Shown piece after piece: positions 9,782-51,522 of a stretch of 64,000 nucleotides of DNA. Made by a program: the position numbers and the translations under genes. Every line of letters begins with the position of its first letter. Position 1 is the first letter of the stretch. Origin of the DNA: Octopus vulgaris (lineage: Eukaryota); the NCBI GenBank assembly GCA_951406725.2, contig OX597814.1, forward strand, positions 98,642,001 to 98,706,000, given 5' to 3'. A model generated the notes under the pieces. That model did no database searches and had not been told where the DNA came from. It saw only the letters and a program-made list of their open reading frames with translations.

Positions 9782-10205
9782 GGATCTTTTCGGTTTGAAC
9801 AGCAGTTTTTTTCTACCGGTGTCATATGAAATTGTCACCCATAATTATGACCCTAGTGTCGATCTATTGCATTTCAATCTGTTTTAGGGTTAGGGTTAGG
9901 GTTAGGGTAGGGGGAAGGGTATCTTTTTTTTCTTCACAAATGTAAATAAACCCAATCTGTTTCTTAAACGAGGGGCATATTCATACGGCACAGAATGTTT
10001 CCACCTCAATAGACGTCATTGATTGTTTGAAATTGCAGAAATTGAAGAAAAAAAGCAATAAATATCTTACAAACTATAGAAATTTCTCAATAAAGCCAAG
10101 AGAAAAAGATGTTTTATAAACACATTCTACCAGTATACGAAGTTTAAAAGTGTTTAGTTACGTGGAAATTATTTTTAAAAACTGCCGTTCAAACCGAAAA
10201 GATCC
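9782..10205. mobile_element. MITE with ~28-bp TIRs and internal (TTAGGG)n
   Basis: GGATCTTTTCGGTTTGAACAGCAGTTTT ... AAAACTGCCGTTCAAACCGAAAAGATCC. Flanks gaaaaaac/aaaaaaac fit an 8-bp TSD with 1 mismatch. Second copy at 19191. Confidence 0.9.
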
Positions 10206-10344
10206 AAAAAAACTGCCCCTCTTGAAAAACATTTTTTGAATACTGAAGATTTCCCTCAGTTACTGGCAACATTACAGGAGATGGGGAGGAGAAAAGGAAG
10301 GGCAAAATATTCAAAGTAGTAGCAGGAGTGAAACCATTGGAAAC

Positions 10345-10650
10345 AGCAGTGACGGCAATGATAGCGACGGCGGTGACAGCAGCGGTGGCGGCGACAGCAG
10401 TGGTGGCGGCGACAACAGTGGTGGCGACAGCAGCGGCGACAACAGTGGTGGCGACAGCAGCGGCGGCGACAGCAGCGGCGGCGACAGCAGCGGCGGCGAC
10501 AGCAGCGGCGGCGACAGCAGCGGCGGCGACAGCAGCGGCGGCGACAGCAGGAATGGCGACCAGCATTGGCTGCAACAGTAGTGTAGGCGACAACAGCGGC
10601 TGCGACAACAGCGGCGGCGACAGCAGCGGTGGGGACAGCGGTGGCAGTAG
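10345..10650. repeat. GC-rich 15-bp minisatellite (GCGGCGGCGACAGCA)n
   Basis: Read directly; it produces the spurious poly-Ala ORFs on both strands. Confidence 0.9.
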
Positions 10651-10660
10651 TAGTAATAAT

Positions 10661-11114
10661 TATTTCTTTACTACCCCCAAGGGTCTAAACATAGAGGGGA
10701 AAAACAAGGACAGACAAACGGATGAAGTCGATTACATCGACCCCAGTGCCTAACTGATACTTAATTTATCGAAGGCGGCGAGCTGGCAGAAACGTTAGCA
10801 CGCCGGGCGAAATGCTTAGCGGTATTTCGTCTGCCGCTACGTTCTGAGTTCAAATTCCGCCGAGGTCGATAAATTAAGTACCAGTTACGCACTGGGGTCG
10901 ATGTAATCGACTTAATACCTATGTCTGTCCTTGTTTGTCCCCTCTATGTTTACCCCCTTGTGGGTAATAAAGAAATAGGTACTTAATTTATCGACCCCGA
11001 AAGGATGAAAGGCAAAGTCGACCTCGGTAGAATTTGAACTCAGAACGTAACGGCAGACGAAATACCGCTAAGCATTTCGCCCGGCGTGCTAACGTTTCTG
11101 CCAGATCGCCGCCT
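10661..11114 (-). mobile_element. SINE family B (minus) interrupted by a plus-strand copy of the same family (10774-10977)
   Basis: The inner copy is flanked by the 15-bp duplication TACTTAATTTATCGA (10758-10772, 10980-10994). Confidence 0.9.
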
Positions 11115-11899
11115 TAAGTAGTAGTAATAATGTTAGCAAAAACAATGCATTTCAGAACACAATGGATTTTAGCGAAGAAAATAATACTACATTTGAAGGC
11201 GCTGACGGCGGTGTGGAGAGTGGCAAAGGTGGAAGTGGCCATAACTCCACCACAATCACCACCAACAGCAACATCATCAGCAGCAGTAGTAACAACAACA
11301 ATAGCAGCAAAGTCGACAAACAATAACAAAAACAAGAGGTTTGTTTATGTAGCAAACACACCTGTAGGGCCACTAGATACCTGTGAGCCTTCTGCCCCCA
11401 AAATTCGAGAGGTACGCGGCCACACCTGCAGCTTACAGCGCAACCCCACAAATGGAGATCTTTTAATAGAACTGCAACCTCAACCCCAACAACAACAGGG
11501 AAATGGGAAACCATACAACGGGAAAAACTACCCGCGGTATCTGTCAAACCAGTCCCCTCAGGCCATCTCTCAAGCATACACTCACACAAGACACACTCAC
11601 TCTCCCCGAGGCAGCCCATACAGACACTAGCCATTACTCATGTAGTGTAGACGAGGAAGAACCCTGCAAAGCTAAAAACGCCCGAAAACACAGAAACCAC
11701 CAACACATCGAACATAGACACAGCAAAAACAACACCAGCACTACCATCCCCACAACCACTAATGCACCCACAACTACACATAGCTCCCTAAAAGAAAACT
11801 CACAGTCAATACGGAAACACCGAATTATATGCTCGTAAGGTGTCATCTGTACCGTCAACACAGGATCCATAAACAGGGCCCTAGATACTGGAATCTGAA

Positions 11900-19190: not shown

Positions 19191-19620
19191 GGATCTTTTC
19201 GGTTTGAACGGCAGTTTTTCTAGCGATGTCATATGAAATTGTCACCCATAATTATGACCCTAGTATCGATCCATTACATTTCAATCTGTTTTAGGGTTAA
19301 GGTTAGTTAGAGTTAGGGTTAGGGGTGGGGGGAAGAGTATCTTTTTTTCTTCACAAATGTAAATAAACCCAATCTGTTTTTAAACGAAGGACATATTCAT
19401 ACGGCACAGAATGCTTTTTACCTCAATAGATGTCATTGATTGGTTGAAATTACAGAAATTGAAGAAAAAACAACAAATAGCTTACAAACTATAGAATTTT
19501 CTCAATAAAGCCAAGAGAAAAGGATGTTTTATAAACACATTCTACCAGTATACGAAATTTAAAAGTGTTTAGTTACGTGGAAATTATTTTAAAAAACTGC
19601 CGTTAAAACCGAAAAGATCC
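19191..19620. mobile_element. MITE, second copy of the TTAGGG-containing family
   Basis: Same TIRs and body as 9782-10205. Flanks cagtttgg/cagttttg fit an 8-bp TSD with 1 mismatch. Confidence 0.9.

Positions 19621-31574: not shown

Positions 31575-31575
<1 letters not shown>
29810..31575 (-). mobile_element. Decayed Tx1-like LINE ORF2 (RT region)
   Basis: GRSPGLDALSYELY, AQTCAIPSRAIHN, SVRHACPHSSLLYVLTLEPLLQKL (QGCPLSP-like) and VSAYSDI (YADD-like). FYRGLVERK is homologous to FYRRLVEGR at 34270. Many frameshifts. Confidence 0.85.
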
Positions 31576-31631
<56 letters not shown>

Positions 31632-31632
<1 letters not shown>

Positions 31633-32708
31633 CCAAACTGAACAACCCGAGGGAAGTACGGCAACTCCCAAACTGAACAACCCGAGGGAAGTACGGCAAC
31701 TATTGTTGCAAAGAAGGTGAAAATGATGGCAATGAAGAAAGCACACGAGCAATTGGCTGATAGGTGGGAGGAGAAACCTCTGCACGGCAAATATGTGACC
31801 CGCAGCAAACAAGCTGATGTTGACCAGAAGCAAACCCATCAGTGGCTACGGAGCTCAGGGCTAGAAGCAGAGAGCGAAGGTTTCATCCTGGCTGCTCAAG
31901 ATCAAAGCCTATTAACCCGGAACTACCAGGCCAATGTGATGAAAAATGGAGCAGACCCAAAATGCCGATTCTGCAACGACATGATTGAAACAGTGGACCA
32001 CCTAATCTCTGGATGTAAAGTCTTAGCACCAGTGGAGTATAAATTAAGACATGACAGAGTTGGCCAATATCTCCACTGGCTAATAAGTCGGCATTACAAT
32101 ATCAAAACTGCCGACAAGTGGTATAATCACCACCCTGAGGCTGTAACTGAAGGAGAAAATGTAACCATTCTGTGGGACTTTCCAGTACATACAGACCGAA
32201 CCATCAAGGCCAATAAACCAGATATTGTTGTGAAAGACCAAAACAATAAAGTTTGCTTATTGATTGACATGAGCATCCCCTGTGATCATAATATCTCAGC
32301 GAAAGAGTTTGACAAGCTCAGAAAATATAAAGACCTACTCATTGAAATTGAGAAAATGTGGCATCTCAAGGCGGTTACAATACCAGTGATCGTAGGAGCA
32401 CTAGGAATGATCAAGAAGGGAACCGAAAATTATATGAGAATGATCCCTGGCTTACCATCCCTGCAAGAAGTGCAAAAGATTGTCTTAACTAGTACATCAC
32501 ACGTATTGAGAAGAGCATTGTCGATGTGAGAACTGTTGCTGCTCATGTATTTTAATTTAACTTTAAAAAAAAAAAAAATTAAAAAAATGAGCGAACTACT
32601 GAGTTTGGTTTAATGGCCTACCAATGTATGCTATGAGTTTCTTTGCCCTAGGAGTCGGGACGACACTCGGCAAGAAATGGAAGCAAATTTGAAAGAAGAA
32701 AAAAAAAG
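31632..32708 (+). mobile_element. 5'-truncated Dong/R4-like RLE retrotransposon in a (TAA)n tract
   Basis: (TAA)n on both sides (31576-31631, 32709-32732); A-rich 3' end; 35-bp tandem duplication at the 5' junction. Confidence 0.9.
31717..32529 (+). CDS. C-terminal fragment of a non-LTR retrotransposon protein: CCHC zinc knuckle + restriction-like endonuclease
   Basis: CRFCNDMIETVDHLISGC, RHD, KPDIVV..LIDMSIP..K..KY; open for 270 aa. Confidence 0.9.
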   Translation: MKMMAMKKAHEQLADRWEEKPLHGKYVTRSKQADVDQKQTHQWLRSSGLEAESEGFILAAQDQSLLTRNYQANVMKNGADPKCRFCNDMIETVDHLISGCKVLAPVEYKLRHDRVGQYLHWLISRHYNIKTADKWYNHHPEAVTEGENVTILWDFPVHTDRTIKANKPDIVVKDQNNKVCLLIDMSIPCDHNISAKEFDKLRKYKDLLIEIEKMWHLKAVTIPVIVGALGMIKKGTENYMRMIPGLPSLQEVQKIVLTSTSHVLRRALSM

Positions 32709-32800
32709 TAATAATAATAATAATAATAATAATGTAATATAAAAATGTCAAATGCGTGACTTTTGGCCCACCCTGTATCTATCTATCTGTCTGTCTATCT

Positions 32801-41330: not shown

Positions 41331-41930
<600 letters not shown>

Positions 41931-42082
41931 ATATATAGATGTATATACATATGTATATGTATATATACATATATATGCGTATATATACATATATATATAT
42001 TTATATATATATGTATATATACATAGATATATATACATATCTATTATATATACATATACGTACATATATACATATATATATA

Positions 42083-42147
<65 letters not shown>

Positions 42148-42150
<3 letters not shown>

Positions 42151-45100
42151 GCTCGATGACCGCAGCAAGTTCTTAAAAATTTATCTTACTATTTTTTGTA
42201 TTCGTTGTTACTACGTTTATTCATACACTGTTACGAAAATTTAACCTTTTTTAGGCTACTTTCAAGCCTTCGCCATAACTTGATTTATCTTTCCTATCGC
42301 TCTCTCTACAATATTTAACCGTAGGCTGCCTCAAGCCGTAATCCCATCTTTTCCCATCTTTCAGCCATTGGCGGTCTTCTTTTTCCTCCTCTTCTTCTTC
42401 ATATGCTAAAACTTGAAAACCGCCATTACTATTACTATTACGATTCTGCAATTTAAATTCCCAGTTCAACTTACTTTCTTCTTCAATTTCAACTCCCGCT
42501 CGATGACCGCAGCAAGTTCTTAAAAATTTATCTTACTATTTTTTTTATTCGTTGTTACTACGTTTATTCATACACTGTTACGAAAATTTAACCTTTTTTA
42601 GGCTACTTTCAAGCCTTCGCCATAACTTGATTTATCTTTCCTATCGCTCTCTCTACAATATTTAACCGTAGGCTGCCTCAAGCCGTAATCCCATCCTTTC
42701 CCATCTTTCAGCCATTGGCGGTCTTCTTTTTCCTCCTCTTCTTCTTCATATGCTAAAACTTGAAAACCGCCATTACTATTACTATTACGATTCTGCAATT
42801 TAAATTCCCAGTTCAACTTACTTTCTTCTTCAATTTCAACTCCCGCTCGATGACCGCAGCAAGTTCTTAAAAATTTATCTTACTATTTTTTTTATTCGTT
42901 GTTACTACGTTTATTCATACACTGTTACGAAAATTTAACCTTTTTTAGGCTACTTTCAAGCCTTCGCCATAACTTGATTTATCTTTCCTATCGCTCTCTC
43001 TACAATATTTAACCGTAGGCTGCCTCAAGCCGTAATCCCATCTTTTCCCATCTTTCAGCCATTGGCGGTCTTCTTTTTCCTCCTCTTCTTCTTCATATGC
43101 TAAAACTTGAAAACCGCCATTACTATTACTATTACGATTCTGCAATTTAAATTCCCAGTTCAACTTACTTTCTTCTTCAATTTCAACTCCCGCTCGATGA
43201 CCGCAGCAAGTTCTTAAAAATTTATCTTACTATTTTTTTTATTCGTTGTTACTACGTTTATTCATACACTGTTACGAAAATTTAACCTTTTTTAGGCTAC
43301 TTTCAAGCCTTCGCCATAACTTGATTTATCTTTCCTATCGCTCTCTCTACAATATTTAACCGTAGGCTGCCTCAAGCCGTAATCCCATCTTTTCCCATCT
43401 TTCAGCCATTGGCGGTCTTCTTTTTCCTCCTCTTCTTCTTCATATGCTAAAACTTGAAAACCGCCATTACTATTACTATTACGATTCTGCAATTTAAATT
43501 CCCAGTTCAACTTACTTTCTTCTTCAATTTCAACTCCCGCTCGATGACCGCAGCAAGTTCTTAAAAATTTATCTTACTATTTTTTTATTCGTTGTTACTA
43601 CGTTTATTTATACACTGTTACGAAAATTTAACCTTTTTTAGGCTACTTTCAAGCCTTCGCCATAACTTGATTTATCTTTCCTATCGCTCTCTCTACAATA
43701 TTTAACCGTAGGCTGCCTCAAGCCGTAATCCCATCTTTTCCCATCTTTCAGCCATTGGCGGTCTTCTTTTCCTCCTCTTCTTCTTCATATGCTAAAACTT
43801 GAAAACCGCCATTACTATTACTATTACGATTCTGCAATTTAAATTCCCAGTTCAACTTACTTTCTTCTTCAATTTCAACTCCCGCTCGATGACCGCAGCA
43901 AGTTCTTAAAAATTTATCTTACTATTTTTTTTATTCGTTGTTACTACGTTTATTCATACACTGTTACGAAAATTTAACCTTTTTTAGGCTACTTTCAAGC
44001 CTTCGCCATAACTTGATTTATCTTTCCTATCGCTCTCTCTACAATATTTAACCGTAGGCTGCCTCAAGCCGTAATCCCATCTTTTCCCATCTTTCAGCCA
44101 TTGGCGGTCTTCTTTTTCCTCCTCTTCTTCTTCATATGCTAAAACTTGAAAACCGCCATTACTATTACTATTACGATTCTGCAATTTAAATTCCCAGTTC
44201 AACTTACTTTCTTCTTCAATTTCAACTCCCGCTCGATGACCGCAGCAAGTTCTTAAAAATTTATCTTACTATTTTTTTTATTCGTTGTTACTACGTTTAT
44301 TCATACACTGTTACGAAAATTTAACCTTTTTTAGGCTACTTTCAAGCCTTCGCCATAACTTGATTTATCTTTCCTATCGCTCTCTCTACAATATTTAACC
44401 GTAGGCTGCCTCAAGCCGTAATCCCATCTTTTCCCATCTTTCAGCCATTGGCGGTCTTCTTTTTCCTCCTCTTCTTCTTCATATGCTAAAACTTGAAAAC
44501 CGCCATTACTATTACTATTACGATTCTGCAATTTAAATTCCCAGTTCAACTTACTTTCTTCTTCAATTTCAACTCCCGCTCGATGACCGCAGCAAGTTCT
44601 TAAAAATTTATCTTACTATTTTTTTTTATTCGTTGTTACTACGTTTATTCATACACTGTTACGAAAATTTAACCTTTTTTAGGCTACTTTCAAGCCTTCG
44701 CCATAACTTGATTTATCTTTCCTATCGCTCTCTCTACAATATTTAACCGTAGGCTGCCTCAAGCCGTAATCCCATCTTTTCCCATCTTTCAGCCATTGGC
44801 GGTCTTCTTTTTCCTCCTCTTCTTCTTCATATGCTAAAACTTGAAAACCGCCATTACTATTACTATTACGATTCTGCAATTTAAATTCCCAGTTCAACTT
44901 ACTTTCTTCTTCAATTTCAACTCCCGCTCGATGACCGCAGCAAGTTCTTAAAAATTTATCTTACTATTTTTTTATTCGTTGTTACTACGTTTATTCATAC
45001 ACTGTTACGAAAATTTAACCTTTTTTAGGCTACTTTCAAGCCTTCGCCATAACTTGATTTATCTTTCCTATCGCTCTCTCTACAATATTTAACCGTAGGC

Positions 45101-45487
45101 TGCCTCAAGCCGTAATCCCATCTTTTCCCATCTTTCAGCCATTGGCGGTCTTCTTTTTCCTCCTCTTCTTCTTCATATGCTAAAACTTGAAAACCGCCAT
45201 TACTATTACTATTACGATTCTGCAATTTAAATTCCCAGTTCAACTTACTTTCTTCTTCAATTTCAACTCCCGCTCGATGACCGCAGCAAGTTCTTAAAAA
45301 TTTATCTTACTATTTTTTTTATTCGTTGTTACTACGTTTATTCATACACTGTTACGAAAATTTAACCTTTTTTAGGCTACTTTCAAGCCTTCGCCATAAC
45401 TTGATTTATCTTTCCTATCGCTCTCTCTACAATATTTAACCGTAGGCTGCCTCAAGCCGTAATCCCATCTTTTCCCATCTTTCAGCC
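42148..45487. repeat. Tandem array of a 347-bp unit, ~9.6 near-identical copies
   Basis: Unit CCCGCTCGATGACCGCAGCAAG...TTCAACT recurs every 346-348 bp. Differences are T-run lengths plus a few substitutions. Confidence 0.98.
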
Positions 45488-48400
45488 TTACTCATCTACA
45501 CTGGGTACGCCCTACTCCCTCCTCCTCCCCCCACTACCCCTTCTCCTCATATGCTTAAGACAAGCTGCTAGCGCCATAGCTCATCAACTGCCCACCGATC
45601 TTACGCTTCCTCCTGACACTGCCTCAATCCGACCATCCCCTTTTAGTACCCTCCCGCCTCGTCAATCCGACCATCCCCCTTTTAGTACCCTCCCGCCTCG
45701 TAATATCCTACGTTTTTATTTCTTAGGAACCTACACCAACCCTTCCTGCCATCGTTCCTCCTTACCCCAACCTTCCCCACTGGTTGCTCCCCTATATTAC
45801 CCGCCTCAACTGGACCCCCCTCCCCAACTCAACTCTAGAATATCTGTATTTCTTTCCTCTACCTAATTACGTTACTCAGTGACGATAACAAATGTCCACT
45901 GCTAACACCAGCTCCTGCCCACGGCGTGGTCAGGTTGGAAGAGAGATCAAAAGAAAAATACCACGAAAACTATCACCACCACTACAACCCTCCTCTTCTC
46001 AGGCGCCGAATCCCCCCTGTCCCCCCCACATCTTCCCAGTTTTCAGAGTTGGCACTATCAATGTTGGTACATTGACAGGCAAGTCTAGTGAGATTGTAGA
46101 GATGCTAGAGAGAAGACAGGTTGATGTATGCTGCATACAAGAGGTAAGATGGAGAGATGCTTCGGCTAGGGTCCTCACGGGCAAGGCACTTAGATACAAA
46201 CTCTACTGGCAAGGTAACGCGGAAGGTGTAGGGGGTGTAGGCATTCTCCTTGCGGAGGAATGGGTGGATAAGGTCATAGAGGTTGTCAGGGTTTGTGATA
46301 GAGTGCTTAAGCTCAGGTTGGTCCTACAGAGTGGCACAGCTATGATTATCTCAGCCTATGCCCCACAAGCGGGACTACCAAATGATCAGAAGGACAACTT
46401 TTATGATACCCTTCTGCAGGCTACTTCAAATACTAGTAACAAGGACCTCATCTTTGTAGGTGGAGATTTTAATGGGCATGTTGGGCGGGAATCGGGTATC
46501 TTCACTGGGGTACATGGTGGATATGGTATTGGCACCAGAAATGATGAGGGAACTAGACTACTGGAATTCTGTGATGCATGTAACCTTTCAATCTGCAACA
46601 CTAACTTCAAGAAGCCAGTCTGCCACCTTATAACTTATCAGTCAGGAGACTCCGCTAGCCAAATAGACTTCATCCTCACCAGACAACGGGATGCAGGGTT
46701 GCTCTTGAATACAAAGACCCTCCCGGGTGAAGAATGTATCCCTCAGCATAGACTAATCATCAGTGACTTTAAGCTTGAGGCCAGAAGGACTCCAAGAAAC
46801 AAACCAATCCAGAAAAGAAGGATTTGGAGGCTAAAGAACCCTTCGCATGGTCAGAAATTTAGGGACATACTCATCAAGAAATTTGATGAGAGGGAAGAGG
46901 AGCTTCAGACGTCAGACATAGAAGGTAGCTGGGAATTCCTACGGGACAGCTTGTTGAGTGCCACAGACCAAGTTTGTGGATGGTGCAAAGTCCCTTCCAG
47001 ACCTAGAATTACGTGGTGGTGGAATAGTGCAGTAGATAAAGCCATCTGTGAAAAGAGACGGGCCTGGAAGGATGGGGGCAGCAGGGAACTGTACCAGATA
47101 GCCAAAAGGGAGGCTGGGCGGCAGGTATACATTGCCAAAGATGTAGCAGAAAAGAAGAAGTTTGCCAATGTCCAGCGTCGCGAGGATCAAAGAGCTGAAG
47201 TATTTCGGATTGCCAGACAGTGTGTCAGAGAAAATAGCGATGTTATAGGAGAGAAATGTGTCCGCATGGATGATGGGGCACTTGCTTTTACTACTAGTGA
47301 AAAGAAAGAGGCTTGGAGAAGCCATTATGAAAGACTGCTAAATGAGGAGAATGAATGGGAGGAGGAGAGCCTGCCAAATGTTGACCCAGTAGAGGGACCA
47401 GCTACCCGAATAGACAGCTCCCTTGTAGATAAGGCAATTAAGGATATGAAACCAGGCAAAGCCCCTGGCCTATCAGGAATCACTGCTGAGATGCTTAAAA
47501 CAGCTGGCTATGTGGGCCATGCCATAGTCACCCGCATTGTAAACCAGGTAGTTCACAATGGAGCCATACCCAATGACTGGTGCAGCAGTACCATAGTCAA
47601 CTGCTACAAGGGTAAGGGTGATGCTCTAGATAGAAATAACTACAGAGGTATCAAACTGTTGGACCAGGTGATGAAGGTCTCAGAGAAGGTCATAACCAAT
47701 CTCATTAGGGAGAGAATTTGTTTAGATGAAATGCAGTTCGGTTTTGTACCAGGTAGAAGCACCACTGATGCTATATTCCTGGTCCGACAACTGCAGGAGA
47801 AGTACCTAGCTAAAGATAAACCCCTCTACATAGCTTTTGTAGACTTGGAGAAAGCCTTTGACAGGGTTCCCCGTTCCCTTATCTGGTGGTCGATGCGGAA
47901 ACTGGAGATTGAAGAATGGCTAATAAGGGCTGTACAGGCTCTATACAGAGAGGCTGTTAGCAAGGTTAGGATTGGCAACGAATATAGTGAAGAATTCCGA
48001 GTAGAAGTAGGTGTGCACCAGGGCTCAGCCCTCAGTCCCCTTTTGTTCATCATAGTCCTTCAAGCAATAACAGAGGAATTCAAAACGGGATGCCCCTGGG
48101 AGCTCCTCTATGCCGATGACCTAGCTCTCATAGCAGAATCACTACCGGAACTAGAAGAGAAATTTCGGGTATGGAAGCAAGGGTTGGAATCAAAGGGCCT
48201 TAGAATAAATGTAGCAAAGACCAAAGTATTAGTAAGCAGCAAGAGGTACTCAACACACATCCCCTCGGGTAGGTGGCCCTGCTCAACCTGTAGGAAAGGT
48301 ACAGGTAGAAACTCCATAAGATGCACCCAATGTAAGTTATGGACACATAAGAGGTGCAGCAACATTAAAGGGAAATTAACAGATAAGATAGCTTTCATGT

Positions 48401-49434
48401 GCGGCAGATGCACAGGGACAATAGACACAACAGACACTCAGAAAACAGATTCCATCACACTCCAGGGAGAGAAACTAGAAGTAGTTGATAGTTTCCGCTA
48501 CCTGGGAGACCAAGTTAGTAGCGGAGGTGGATGCACAGAGAGTATCACCACTAGAATACGAATAGCCTGGGCAAAGTTCAGAAAGCTCCTACCCCTACTG
48601 GCAACAAAAGGCCTCTCCCTCAGAGCAAAAGGTAGATTATATGATGCATGTGTGCGAACTGCCATGCTTCACGGTAATGAAACATGGGCTGTGACTGCAG
48701 AAGACATGCGTAGACTTGAAAGAAATGAAGCTAGCATGATCCGCTGGATGTGTAGTGTCAGTGTGCACGCAAAACAGAGTGTAAGTATCCTGAGAGAAAT
48801 GCTGGATATAAGAAGCATCAGATGTGGTGTGCAAGAGCGACGCTTGCGATGGTATGGTCATGTGCTGCGGATGGATGAAGAGAGATGTGTGAAGAAGTGC
48901 CACTCCCAAACAGTTGAAGGTATCAGGGGGAGAGGTAGACCCAGGAAGACATGGGATGAGGTGGTCAAGCATGACCTCAGAGCATTGGGCCTCACTGAGG
49001 CAATGGCGAAGGACCGAGATCTCTGGAGATATGCTGTGACTACAAAGACCCGGGCTGCTTTCTGCAGCAATTCCACATACCCCCTACCCATTCTAAGTAC
49101 CCCGGATCCCCAAAGTACCCCGGATCCCCAAAGTACCCTGGATCCCCAAAATACCCCGATCCCCAAAGTACCCCGGACCTCGCTGACACGTTAAAATGCT
49201 CGAACCGATCGTGACGATGCCGGACCCTCCGGCCCCTGTGCAGGTGGCACGTAAAAAGCACCCAATCCACTCACGGAGTGGTTGGCGTTAGGAAGGGCAT
49301 CCAGCCGTAGAAACTCTGCCAGATTCAGACTGGAGCCTGGAGCGGCCCCTGGCTTCCCAGACCCGGTCAAACCGTCCAACCCGTGCTAGCGCGGAAAGCG
49401 GACGTTAAACGATGATGATGATGATGATGATGAT
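45488..49434 (+). mobile_element. Apparently intact RTE-clade LINE
   Basis: C-rich 5' UTR, single APE+RT ORF, 3' UTR with GGCGTTAGGAAGGGCATCCAGCCGTA, and (GAT)8 tail at 49411-49434. Confidence 0.95.
45892..49194 (+). CDS. RTE-type AP endonuclease / reverse transcriptase with inserted PHD finger
   Basis: APE: GTINVGTL, CIQEVRW, SAYAPQ, GDFNGHVG, QIDFIL, QH. RT: NYRGIKLL, QFGF.PGRSTTDAIF, FVDLEKAFDRV, GVHQGSALSPLLF, LYADD, FRYLG. No stops in 1100 aa. Confidence 0.97.
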   Translation: MSTANTSSCPRRGQVGREIKRKIPRKLSPPLQPSSSQAPNPPCPPHIFPVFRVGTINVGTLTGKSSEIVEMLERRQVDVCCIQEVRWRDASARVLTGKALRYKLYWQGNAEGVGGVGILLAEEWVDKVIEVVRVCDRVLKLRLVLQSGTAMIISAYAPQAGLPNDQKDNFYDTLLQATSNTSNKDLIFVGGDFNGHVGRESGIFTGVHGGYGIGTRNDEGTRLLEFCDACNLSICNTNFKKPVCHLITYQSGDSASQIDFILTRQRDAGLLLNTKTLPGEECIPQHRLIISDFKLEARRTPRNKPIQKRRIWRLKNPSHGQKFRDILIKKFDEREEELQTSDIEGSWEFLRDSLLSATDQVCGWCKVPSRPRITWWWNSAVDKAICEKRRAWKDGGSRELYQIAKREAGRQVYIAKDVAEKKKFANVQRREDQRAEVFRIARQCVRENSDVIGEKCVRMDDGALAFTTSEKKEAWRSHYERLLNEENEWEEESLPNVDPVEGPATRIDSSLVDKAIKDMKPGKAPGLSGITAEMLKTAGYVGHAIVTRIVNQVVHNGAIPNDWCSSTIVNCYKGKGDALDRNNYRGIKLLDQVMKVSEKVITNLIRERICLDEMQFGFVPGRSTTDAIFLVRQLQEKYLAKDKPLYIAFVDLEKAFDRVPRSLIWWSMRKLEIEEWLIRAVQALYREAVSKVRIGNEYSEEFRVEVGVHQGSALSPLLFIIVLQAITEEFKTGCPWELLYADDLALIAESLPELEEKFRVWKQGLESKGLRINVAKTKVLVSSKRYSTHIPSGRWPCSTCRKGTGRNSIRCTQCKLWTHKRCSNIKGKLTDKIAFMCGRCTGTIDTTDTQKTDSITLQGEKLEVVDSFRYLGDQVSSGGGCTESITTRIRIAWAKFRKLLPLLATKGLSLRAKGRLYDACVRTAMLHGNETWAVTAEDMRRLERNEASMIRWMCSVSVHAKQSVSILREMLDIRSIRCGVQERRLRWYGHVLRMDEERCVKKCHSQTVEGIRGRGRPRKTWDEVVKHDLRALGLTEAMAKDRDLWRYAVTTKTRAAFCSNSTYPLPILSTPDPQSTPDPQSTLDPQNTPIPKVPRTSLTR

Positions 49435-49462
49435 ATATATATATATGCATGTATGTATAGAT

Positions 49463-51134: not shown

Positions 51135-51522
51135 ACTCCATCGTTTAATATTTTACGACAATGAGAGTTCCAGTAGATCGGATTAGCGGAACAGCCTACT
51201 TTTGAAATTAACGTGCAAGCTGCTGAGTACTCCACAGACACATGCACCCTTAACGCAGTTCTCGGGGAGATTCAGCGTGACACAGAGTGTGACAAGATTC
51301 GCACTTTGGAAGAATACAGGTAGAAAAGAAACAGGAAGAAAGAGTGAGAGAAAGTTGTGGGGAAAGAGTACAGAGGGCTCACCACCACCACCTTGCAGAG
51401 CCCCGTAGAACTTTAGATGTTTTCGCTCAATAAACACTTACAACGCCCGGACTGGGAATCGAAACCGTGATCCTATGACCGCGATTCCGCTGCCCTAACT
51501 ACTGGGCCATTGCTCCTCCACC
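51135..51522 (-). mobile_element. SINE family C
   Basis: Reverse complement of 41545-41930. Confidence 0.88.

What the first reader, a model, noticed from the sequence alone, without database searches (positions are those of the whole stretch)
42148..49434. Intact RTE LINE carrying a ~3.3-kb array of 347-bp monomers at its 5' end, apparently one insertion in (TA)n
Seen: ~9.6 almost identical 347-bp units run with no spacer into the LINE 5' UTR (junction TTCAGCC|TTACTC at 45487). The combined block is bounded by (TA)n on the left (42147) and (GAT)8-(AT)n on the right. About 55 bp past the junction the unique UTR has TTCTCCTCATATGCTTAA, echoing TTCTTCTTCATATGCTAAAA, which follows the same point in the unit. 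Known: tandem 5' promoter monomers characterise rodent L1; I do not recall them for RTE elements. Inference: the array is part of the element (renewable promoter monomers), a product of reiterated template jumping during target-primed reverse transcription, or a satellite being seeded by the LINE.
Basis: partly seen in the sequence, partly recalled or inferred. Interest (0 to 1): 0.85.

Follow-up and report, generated by a model that had tools for sequence, protein, structure and literature searches.

The report
Octopus RTE with repeated front end
An intact jumping gene in a probable octopus genome begins with 9.6 near-identical 347-base repeats that are likely its own stacked promoters, as in mouse LINE-1, but this copy joins repeats and gene at a point that most sister copies do not use, so the link is inferred rather than shown.

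Summary
In detail: 9 full 347-bp units plus 219 bp (6 variable columns of 348) run into a 404-bp unique leader, an intact 1100-aa endonuclease/RT ORF and a (GAT)8 tail, between (TA)n runs. The unit is a high-copy tandem family (head-to-tail joint in 4 of 4 runs). But in 5 of 7 runs laid, sister copies continue the leader upstream with other sequence, and no listed contig bridges this copy's junction, which sits on a 3-bp GCC microhomology. Best reading (0.6): a mouse-L1-like monomer-plus-tether 5' end whose tether was shortened in this copy. Support is indirect: unit-to-leader contig depths of about 1-13, a leader/unit echo that is weak alone (128 of 1000 shuffles) and longer in sister copies, and equal youth. 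Promoter activity is untested; no TATA box or ribozyme was found. Chimera or adjacent-insertion origins remain open. Nine paper searches found no RTE with such arrays. The scan already noted this design on other DNA (613-bp units in this genome; a 43-kb array in another octopus), unchecked here.

The parts
41931..42147 (.). Compound (TA)n/(TATG) microsatellite, left target sequence
42148..45487 (+). Tandem array: nine 345-348-bp units and a 219-bp partial unit; 36% GC, CpG o/e 1.46, T/C-rich + strand; candidate promoter monomers
45485..45487 (+). GCC shared by the unit end and by the usual leader of sister copies: microhomology at the junction
   Evidence: loose ends before 45485 in X1, X3 and X3, X15, X16, X19
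45488..45891 (+). Unique leader ('tether'), 404 bp here, longer in sister copies; one 6-codon upstream ORF, no ORF1
45537..45558 (+). Echo of unit positions 45162-45184; sister copies carry 10 more letters behind 45556 that lengthen it
45624..45701 (+). Two copies of a 39-bp repeat; copy number and position vary among sister copies
   Evidence: joints skipping 38-48; loose end before 45538
45892..49194 (+). Intact single ORF, 1100 aa: APE endonuclease, reverse transcriptase, PHD-like finger (about 48280-48411), C-terminal 18-bp repeats (49095-49177)
49195..49410 (+). 3' UTR; its last 65 bp are 85% identical to the 3' end of a distant relative (L001)
49411..49434 (+). (GAT)8 tail
49435..49446 (.). 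(AT)6, right target sequence; possible target-site duplication, not resolvable

Best explanation
This is an intact RTE-type LINE whose 9.6 tandem 347-bp units are likely the family's own 5' promoter monomers, copied together with the coding part in what was probably one insertion into a TA microsatellite. Shown: the anatomy, the near-identity of the units, that the unit is tandem and abundant in other individuals, and that sister copies have a longer leader than this one. Inferred: the family layout is [monomers]n - tether - ORF; transcription starting in a far monomer gives an RNA with many units; reverse transcription primed at the (GAT)n tail copied ORF and tether, and the front of the tether (at least 24-27 bp) was lost by a slip across the shared GCC, here or in the donor copy. 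The units would be kept alike and renewed by unequal exchange or slippage in donor copies; some growth after insertion is possible. Promoter activity is untested.
For: (1) Equal youth: 3 private substitutions in 3340 bp of array; ORF intact, and three long X3 contigs over the ORF start differ from it by 1, 0 and 1 letters. (2) Tandem state is family-wide: joint 45487->45141 in 4 of 4 runs, with a 226-nt X2 contig identical to this copy across it. (3) Depth of single long contigs, unit against leader or ORF start: X12 192.5/20.4, X2 168.2/36.9; X15 289.8/59.7, X19 281/104.8, X16 1630/122.5-634.8, X3 3748/3918-4982: about 2.6-13 in 5 of 6 runs and about 1 in X3, as expected for a few units per 5' end and not for a large free satellite. 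The tool warns that depth is no copy number, so this is weak. (4) Leader/unit echo in the same orientation: one contig in each of 4 of 4 runs carries 10 extra letters behind 45556; they match the unit's continuation at 7 of 10 places (reached by 181 of 3913 element 10-mers, 7 of 404 leader 10-mers), suggesting the tether holds a decayed monomer. (5) The array does not resume after the LINE, and both ends lie in TA microsatellite; an X12 contig shows another copy starting at 45549 behind (AT)n. (6) Short internal deletions with 1-2 shared letters occur among unit variants, so such slips are common here. (7) CpG-rich unit (o/e 1.46; ORF 0.35) with CCAT cores enriched (5 against 1.5 expected, 20 of 2000 shuffles; CGCCAT 2, 9 of 2000; one of ten motifs scanned, uncorrected).
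Against: No call shows a monomer joined to the tether in any other copy. The usual upstream sequence (27 letters seen at most, X19) does not match the unit, and what lies beyond it is unseen. The contig with that other upstream sequence gives 59.7 of 65.0 (X15), 104.8 of 139.3 (X19) and 122.5 of 201.8 (X16) of the depth at 45492-45498. None of the 32 listed pieces bridges this copy's junction (108 not shown; contigs drop rare variants). The echo alone is not significant (128 of 1000). No TATAWAW, TCAKTY or special fold in the unit (z -0.03); the array begins at a T|C step, not the pyrimidine-purine start recalled for most initiators; GC is only 36%. Twenty upstream ATGs lie before the ORF, which would hinder translation of the longest RNA. 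More than 10 monomers is rare in mouse L1 (7 of 5765 loci, PMC9022269 passage). No target-site duplication can be read.
Confidence: 0.6

Rival explanations
1. Chimera or promoter swap: a nearly full-length RTE cDNA jumped at the GCC onto the RNA of an independent tandem-repeat family, or onto the monomer array of another LINE family, so the join is private to this copy or founds a new subfamily.
For: The junction is a minority form on a 3-bp microhomology, and the usual upstream letters do not match the unit. L1 lineages repeatedly recruit new 5' UTRs (PMC5381506, passages). An earlier scan note describes an RTE-made RNA chimera in this genome (e1-8670349, unchecked).
Against: It needs a 3.3-kb transcript of the repeat, in sense orientation, met at the very end of a near-complete cDNA. 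It does not explain the leader/unit echo that is longer in sister copies or unit-to-leader depths near 1-13.
Confidence: 0.17
2. Adjacent insertion: the array was already in the TA microsatellite, and a slightly 5'-truncated RTE landed next to it and was joined by microhomology with loss of the DNA between.
For: Both would favour TA runs, which are abundant here. Microhomology at 5' junctions of truncated LINEs is established knowledge (recalled). The leader is truncated relative to sister copies.
Against: It needs two very young, same-oriented elements to meet within a few bases, with truncation inside the first part of the leader; near-complete copies are the minority of LINE insertions (recalled). 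The echo and depth ratios are unexplained.
Confidence: 0.11
3. The array was made at this insertion by repeated template jumps or rolling-circle copying of one unit, or grew after insertion from one or two units as an incipient satellite.
For: All units carry one haplotype, including alleles that are a minority in the reads (G at 45238 and 45420), and share no derived substitution.
Against: The head-to-tail joint is abundant in all 4 runs, so tandem units are not peculiar to this locus. No hammerhead core, no HDV-like match by my descriptor (no positive control), no Rfam hit at gathering score, no stable fold, so nothing points to an RNA circle.
Confidence: 0.07
4. Assembly artefact: the unit count is inflated, or a chimeric read joined an array to a LINE.
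For: No listed contig bridges the junction; half of the variable columns are homopolymer indels typical of long-read error.
Against: Three units carry private substitutions; the tandem joint is real in independent runs; 3.3 kb is within single long reads (general knowledge); unitig assemblies drop single-copy variants of high-copy repeats.
Confidence: 0.05

Closest known systems
Mouse and rat LINE-1 5' UTR (A, Tf, Gf monomers of about 200 bp; rat about 650 bp; tether of about 250 bp)
   Same: Tandem monomers, then a non-repeated tether, then the ORF; the last monomer partial; CpG-rich units; CCAT cores on the sense strand like the YY1 site GCCATCTT of Tf monomers; the Gf tether holds a truncated monomer (PMC5381506, PMC9022269, PMC10620060; passages).
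   Different: Single-ORF RTE-type element without ORF1; (GAT)n tail; 347-bp, 36% GC units without positional divergence; 9.6 units against a mean of 1.5-3.7 in mouse; promoter activity and clustered starts not shown here.
Octopus RTE-2_OV and the O. bimaculoides RTE of PMC9115989
   Same: Single ORF of about 1100 aa with endonuclease, RT and a zinc finger; microsatellite 3' end; apparently young; 5' UTR about 600 nt in RTE-2_OV.
   Different: Not the same family by the tests possible: 4 of 4 published primers tried mismatch at 6-8 places; 21 published reference letters of the O. bimaculoides consensus fit no offset better than 13 of 21. The paper's main text does not hold the word 'tandem'.
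RTE elements with HDV-like ribozymes; retrozymes and hammerhead satellites
   Same: RTE-type body; tandem units of a few hundred bases.
   Different: Those RTEs are described as lacking their own promoter and being cut out of co-transcripts (PMC6765202, passage). No ribozyme was detected in unit or leader here; the missing front of the tether was not seen, so a ribozyme there is not excluded.

Membership tests
RTE-clade LINE | One long ORF with APE endonuclease followed by reverse transcriptase | tested here: met
RTE-clade LINE | No gag-like ORF1 | tested here: met
   404-bp leader has one ATG with 6 codons; the 153-codon stop-to-stop frame has no Met and no Pfam hit
RTE-clade LINE | 3' end in a short microsatellite-like repeat | tested here: met
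   (GAT)8; feature described in PMC6007223 passages
RTE-clade LINE | RT phylogeny places it in the RTE clade | not tested
   No labelled reference set at hand; homologues are unnamed or generically named. The label rests on architecture and recalled C-terminal motifs.
RTE-clade LINE | Target-site duplication | tested here: inconclusive
   Both flanks are (AT)n; up to 12 bp would fit but cannot be told from the microsatellite
Rodent-L1-type monomer promoter | Tandem monomers directly 5' of a tether and ORF in the same orientation | tested here: met
   this copy only
Rodent-L1-type monomer promoter | Monomers present, in variable number, on most full-length copies of the family | tested here: inconclusive
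   No genome held; contigs too short to link unit and leader; junction differs in sister copies; depth ratios compatible
Rodent-L1-type monomer promoter | Each monomer has promoter activity, and starts cluster at one phase | not testable with these tools
   Only assembled contigs were offered; needs CAGE, 5' RACE or a reporter
Rodent-L1-type monomer promoter | CpG-island-like units with YY1 site | tested here: inconclusive
   CpG o/e 1.46 but GC 36%; CCATNTT twice (79 of 2000 shuffles), no exact GCCATCTT
LINE-1 clade | ORF1 plus ORF2 and poly(A) tail | tested here: not met
Retrozyme / hammerhead satellite | Hammerhead ribozyme in each unit | tested here: not met
   No CTGAnGA core on either strand; no Rfam ribozyme up to E 10; fold z -0.03

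The most novel reading that the evidence does not exclude
Octopus RTE families carry and exchange long arrays of promoter monomers (347 bp here) that travel with the element, evolved independently of rodent L1, reach greater lengths, and seed satellite arrays at new sites; this copy records a template slip that rewires array and tether, the step by which a LINE could gain or swap its promoter.
Probability: 0.3. Interest if true: 0.75.

Novelty: new variant of a known kind. Interest (0 to 1): 0.56.

Why it matters
How LINEs keep a promoter when each copy loses 5' sequence, and how monomer arrays are regained, is known mainly from mouse L1, where daughters lose 0.6-1.8 monomers (PMC10620060). 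A second, independent case in an invertebrate RTE with longer and more uniform arrays would make gain and loss countable across many young copies in one long-read genome. It would also mean that octopus repeat libraries split such elements into a 'LINE' and a 'satellite', and that octopus LINE expression studies may have missed the real promoter. If the link is only a private chimera, it is a modest curiosity.

Tried and rejected
Own genome not held, so the decisive genome-wide count could not be made. No RNA holder listed; runs marked RNA are guesses and were not used as evidence of transcription. Look-ups of unit, leader and locus among earlier scan windows: 0 look-alikes. Unit motif in metagenome contigs: 0. 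Relatives in metagenome contigs: 36 loci, only 1 reaches the ORF start, with 150 bp upstream, so they say nothing on arrays. The O. vulgaris transcriptome supplement of PMC9115989 was held as 84 characters only and could not be searched; two more of its files are too large to read; the one supplement of PMC13282606 was listed, not opened; the repeat libraries could bear on the claim. The 93-codon minus-strand frame in each unit is chance (236 of 1000 shuffles, no Met, no Pfam hit). Rfam sR52 match (24.4 bits against cut-off 50) rejected as compositional. A 4-letter overlap between a loose end behind 45487 in X16 and one before 45493 in X15 could be the usual unit-to-tether path but is too short and comes from mixed contigs; not used. 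Summed depth per bin was not used, because overlapping contigs inflate it. Identity with the two published octopus RTEs rejected. No second copy of unit or element in the window.
Full report
Observation. The block is as described. Ten unit starts lie between 42148 and 45269; nine units are 345-348 bp and the last is 219 bp, ending at 45487 (TRF 9.6 copies). Only 6 of 348 columns vary: three homopolymer indel columns and three substitutions, each in one unit. A 404-bp unique leader follows without spacer, then an ORF of 1100 codons (45892-49194) with endonuclease, RT and a PHD-like finger, a 216-bp 3' UTR and (GAT)8. A compound TA microsatellite lies on both sides. No other copy of unit or element is in the window. 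The host is probably an octopus: the closest named relative is an Octopus vulgaris protein, 76% identical over 303 aligned positions, and earlier scan notes on this genome say octopus; the species was not determined.

The element. Architecture fits an RTE-type LINE: one EN-RT ORF, no ORF1, microsatellite tail. A tree with labelled references was not made, so the clade name rests on architecture and recall. It is not either RTE of PMC9115989 by the tests possible. PMC13282606 counts 13 recently active RTE families in O. vulgaris (passage).

Other copies. Seven runs from seven studies were laid: X1, X3, X2, X12 on one unit plus leader and ORF start; X3, X19, X16, X15 on 45415-45600. The head-to-tail joint 45487->45141 appears in 4 of 4 runs, and a 226-nt X2 contig matches this copy exactly across it, so the tandem unit is real and common. 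Variants with shorter periods also occur. The contig with that form gives 59.7 of 65.0, 104.8 of 139.3 and 122.5 of 201.8 of the depth just behind the junction in X15, X19 and X16. None of the 32 pieces listed bridges this copy's junction (108 not shown; rare variants are dropped). The three letters GCC at 45485-45487 belong to both the unit end and the usual leader. So this copy has a shortened leader joined by microhomology, and what precedes the usual leader beyond 27 letters is unseen.

Indirect evidence for a family link. Single long contigs give unit-to-leader (or ORF-start) depths of 9.4 (X12), 4.6 (X2), 4.9 (X15), 2.7 (X19), 2.6-13 (X16) and about 1 (X3); X1 had no usable pair. That suits a few units per 5' end, not a large free satellite, but the tool states that depth is no copy number. 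The echo scores 24, reached by 128 of 1000 shuffles of the whole leader. One contig in each of the 4 runs carries 10 extra letters behind 45556; these match the unit's continuation at 7 of 10 places, a level reached by 181 of 3913 element 10-mers. Together this suggests, without proving, that the tether holds a decayed monomer, as the mouse Gf tether holds a truncated one (PMC9022269). Array and ORF are both very young, share orientation, and the array does not resume after the LINE.

The unit. It is non-coding (the 93-codon minus frame is reached by 236 of 1000 shuffles), unstructured (z -0.03), without Rfam match, hammerhead core or HDV-like match (descriptor from recall, no positive control). 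It is T/C-rich, 36% GC, with CpG o/e 1.46 against 0.35 in the ORF and 0.84 in the rest of the window. CCAT cores are enriched (20 of 2000 shuffles), one of ten motifs scanned; TATAWAW and TCAKTY are absent. Promoter function is therefore a likely reading by analogy, not a result. Twenty ATGs precede the ORF; protein would more easily come from RNAs starting in near monomers.

Mechanism. Most likely (0.6): family layout [monomer]n - tether - ORF; an RNA begun in a far monomer was reverse transcribed from its (GAT)n tail into a TA run; the front of the tether was lost by a slip at GCC. Rivals: chimera or promoter swap (0.17), adjacent insertion (0.11), array made at or after insertion (0.07), assembly artefact (0.05). 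The first two predict that sister copies lack the unit; one genome-wide count separates them.

Comparison and novelty. It would work like the rodent L1 monomer promoter (PMC5381506, PMC9022269: passages; PMC10620060: passages and Discussion) but is not an L1. Some RTEs are described as promoterless and ribozyme-cut (PMC6765202, passage). Nine paper searches (open-licence library only, listings seen) showed no RTE with a 5' monomer array; passages of PMC9115989, PMC13282606, PMC12051294 and PMC6007223 showed none either. Repbase and Dfam entries could not be checked. The scan has noted the design before on other DNA: 613-bp units in this genome (e1-8670260), a 43-kb array in another octopus genome (e1-8673048) and a CR1 in a ray (e1-9048407). 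These are unchecked notes and are not counted as support; e1-8670260 reached me after my first reading and agrees with it, e1-8670043 and e1-8669730 prompted the TATA and hammerhead checks (both negative here), e1-8670349 prompted the chimera rival, and e1-9306959 is a case judged to be local expansion.

Verdict. Real feature; new variant of a known kind if the family link holds; interest 0.56. The anatomy is striking, but the central claim, that the array belongs to the family, rests on indirect evidence, and the junction itself is atypical.

Noticed in passing
window 48280-48411: PHD-like Cys/His finger directly after the RT core; many relatives from other animals carry the same Pfam domain, so it marks a widespread sub-lineage.
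   Followed up: partly
window 45141-45487, runs: The unit family has variants with shorter periods (returns 45487->45336 and 45483->45350, a deletion of about 45164-45205, a jump to 45275) and common alleles that this array lacks; at least two unit subfamilies exist.
   Followed up: partly
window 41546-41931: SINE-like repeat (tRNA-like head by eye) whose TA-rich tail hosts the block; an 86% identical copy lies at 51153-51521 on the minus strand.
   Followed up: no
window 31575-32733: 5'-truncated LINE fragment with a zf-RVT match (E 6e-4), a perfect 35-bp tandem duplication at its 5' end (31632-31701) and (TAA)n on both sides.
   Followed up: no
window 10661-11130: Palindromic repeat with many 75-95% identical copies across the window, MITE- or SINE-like.
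   Followed up: no
window 9782-10639: A 424-bp stretch 91% identical to 19191-19620, next to a GC-rich 15-bp minisatellite.
   Followed up: no
P0123: A protein 71% identical to this RT is labelled as from a bacterial metagenome bin; probably animal DNA in the bin.
   Followed up: no
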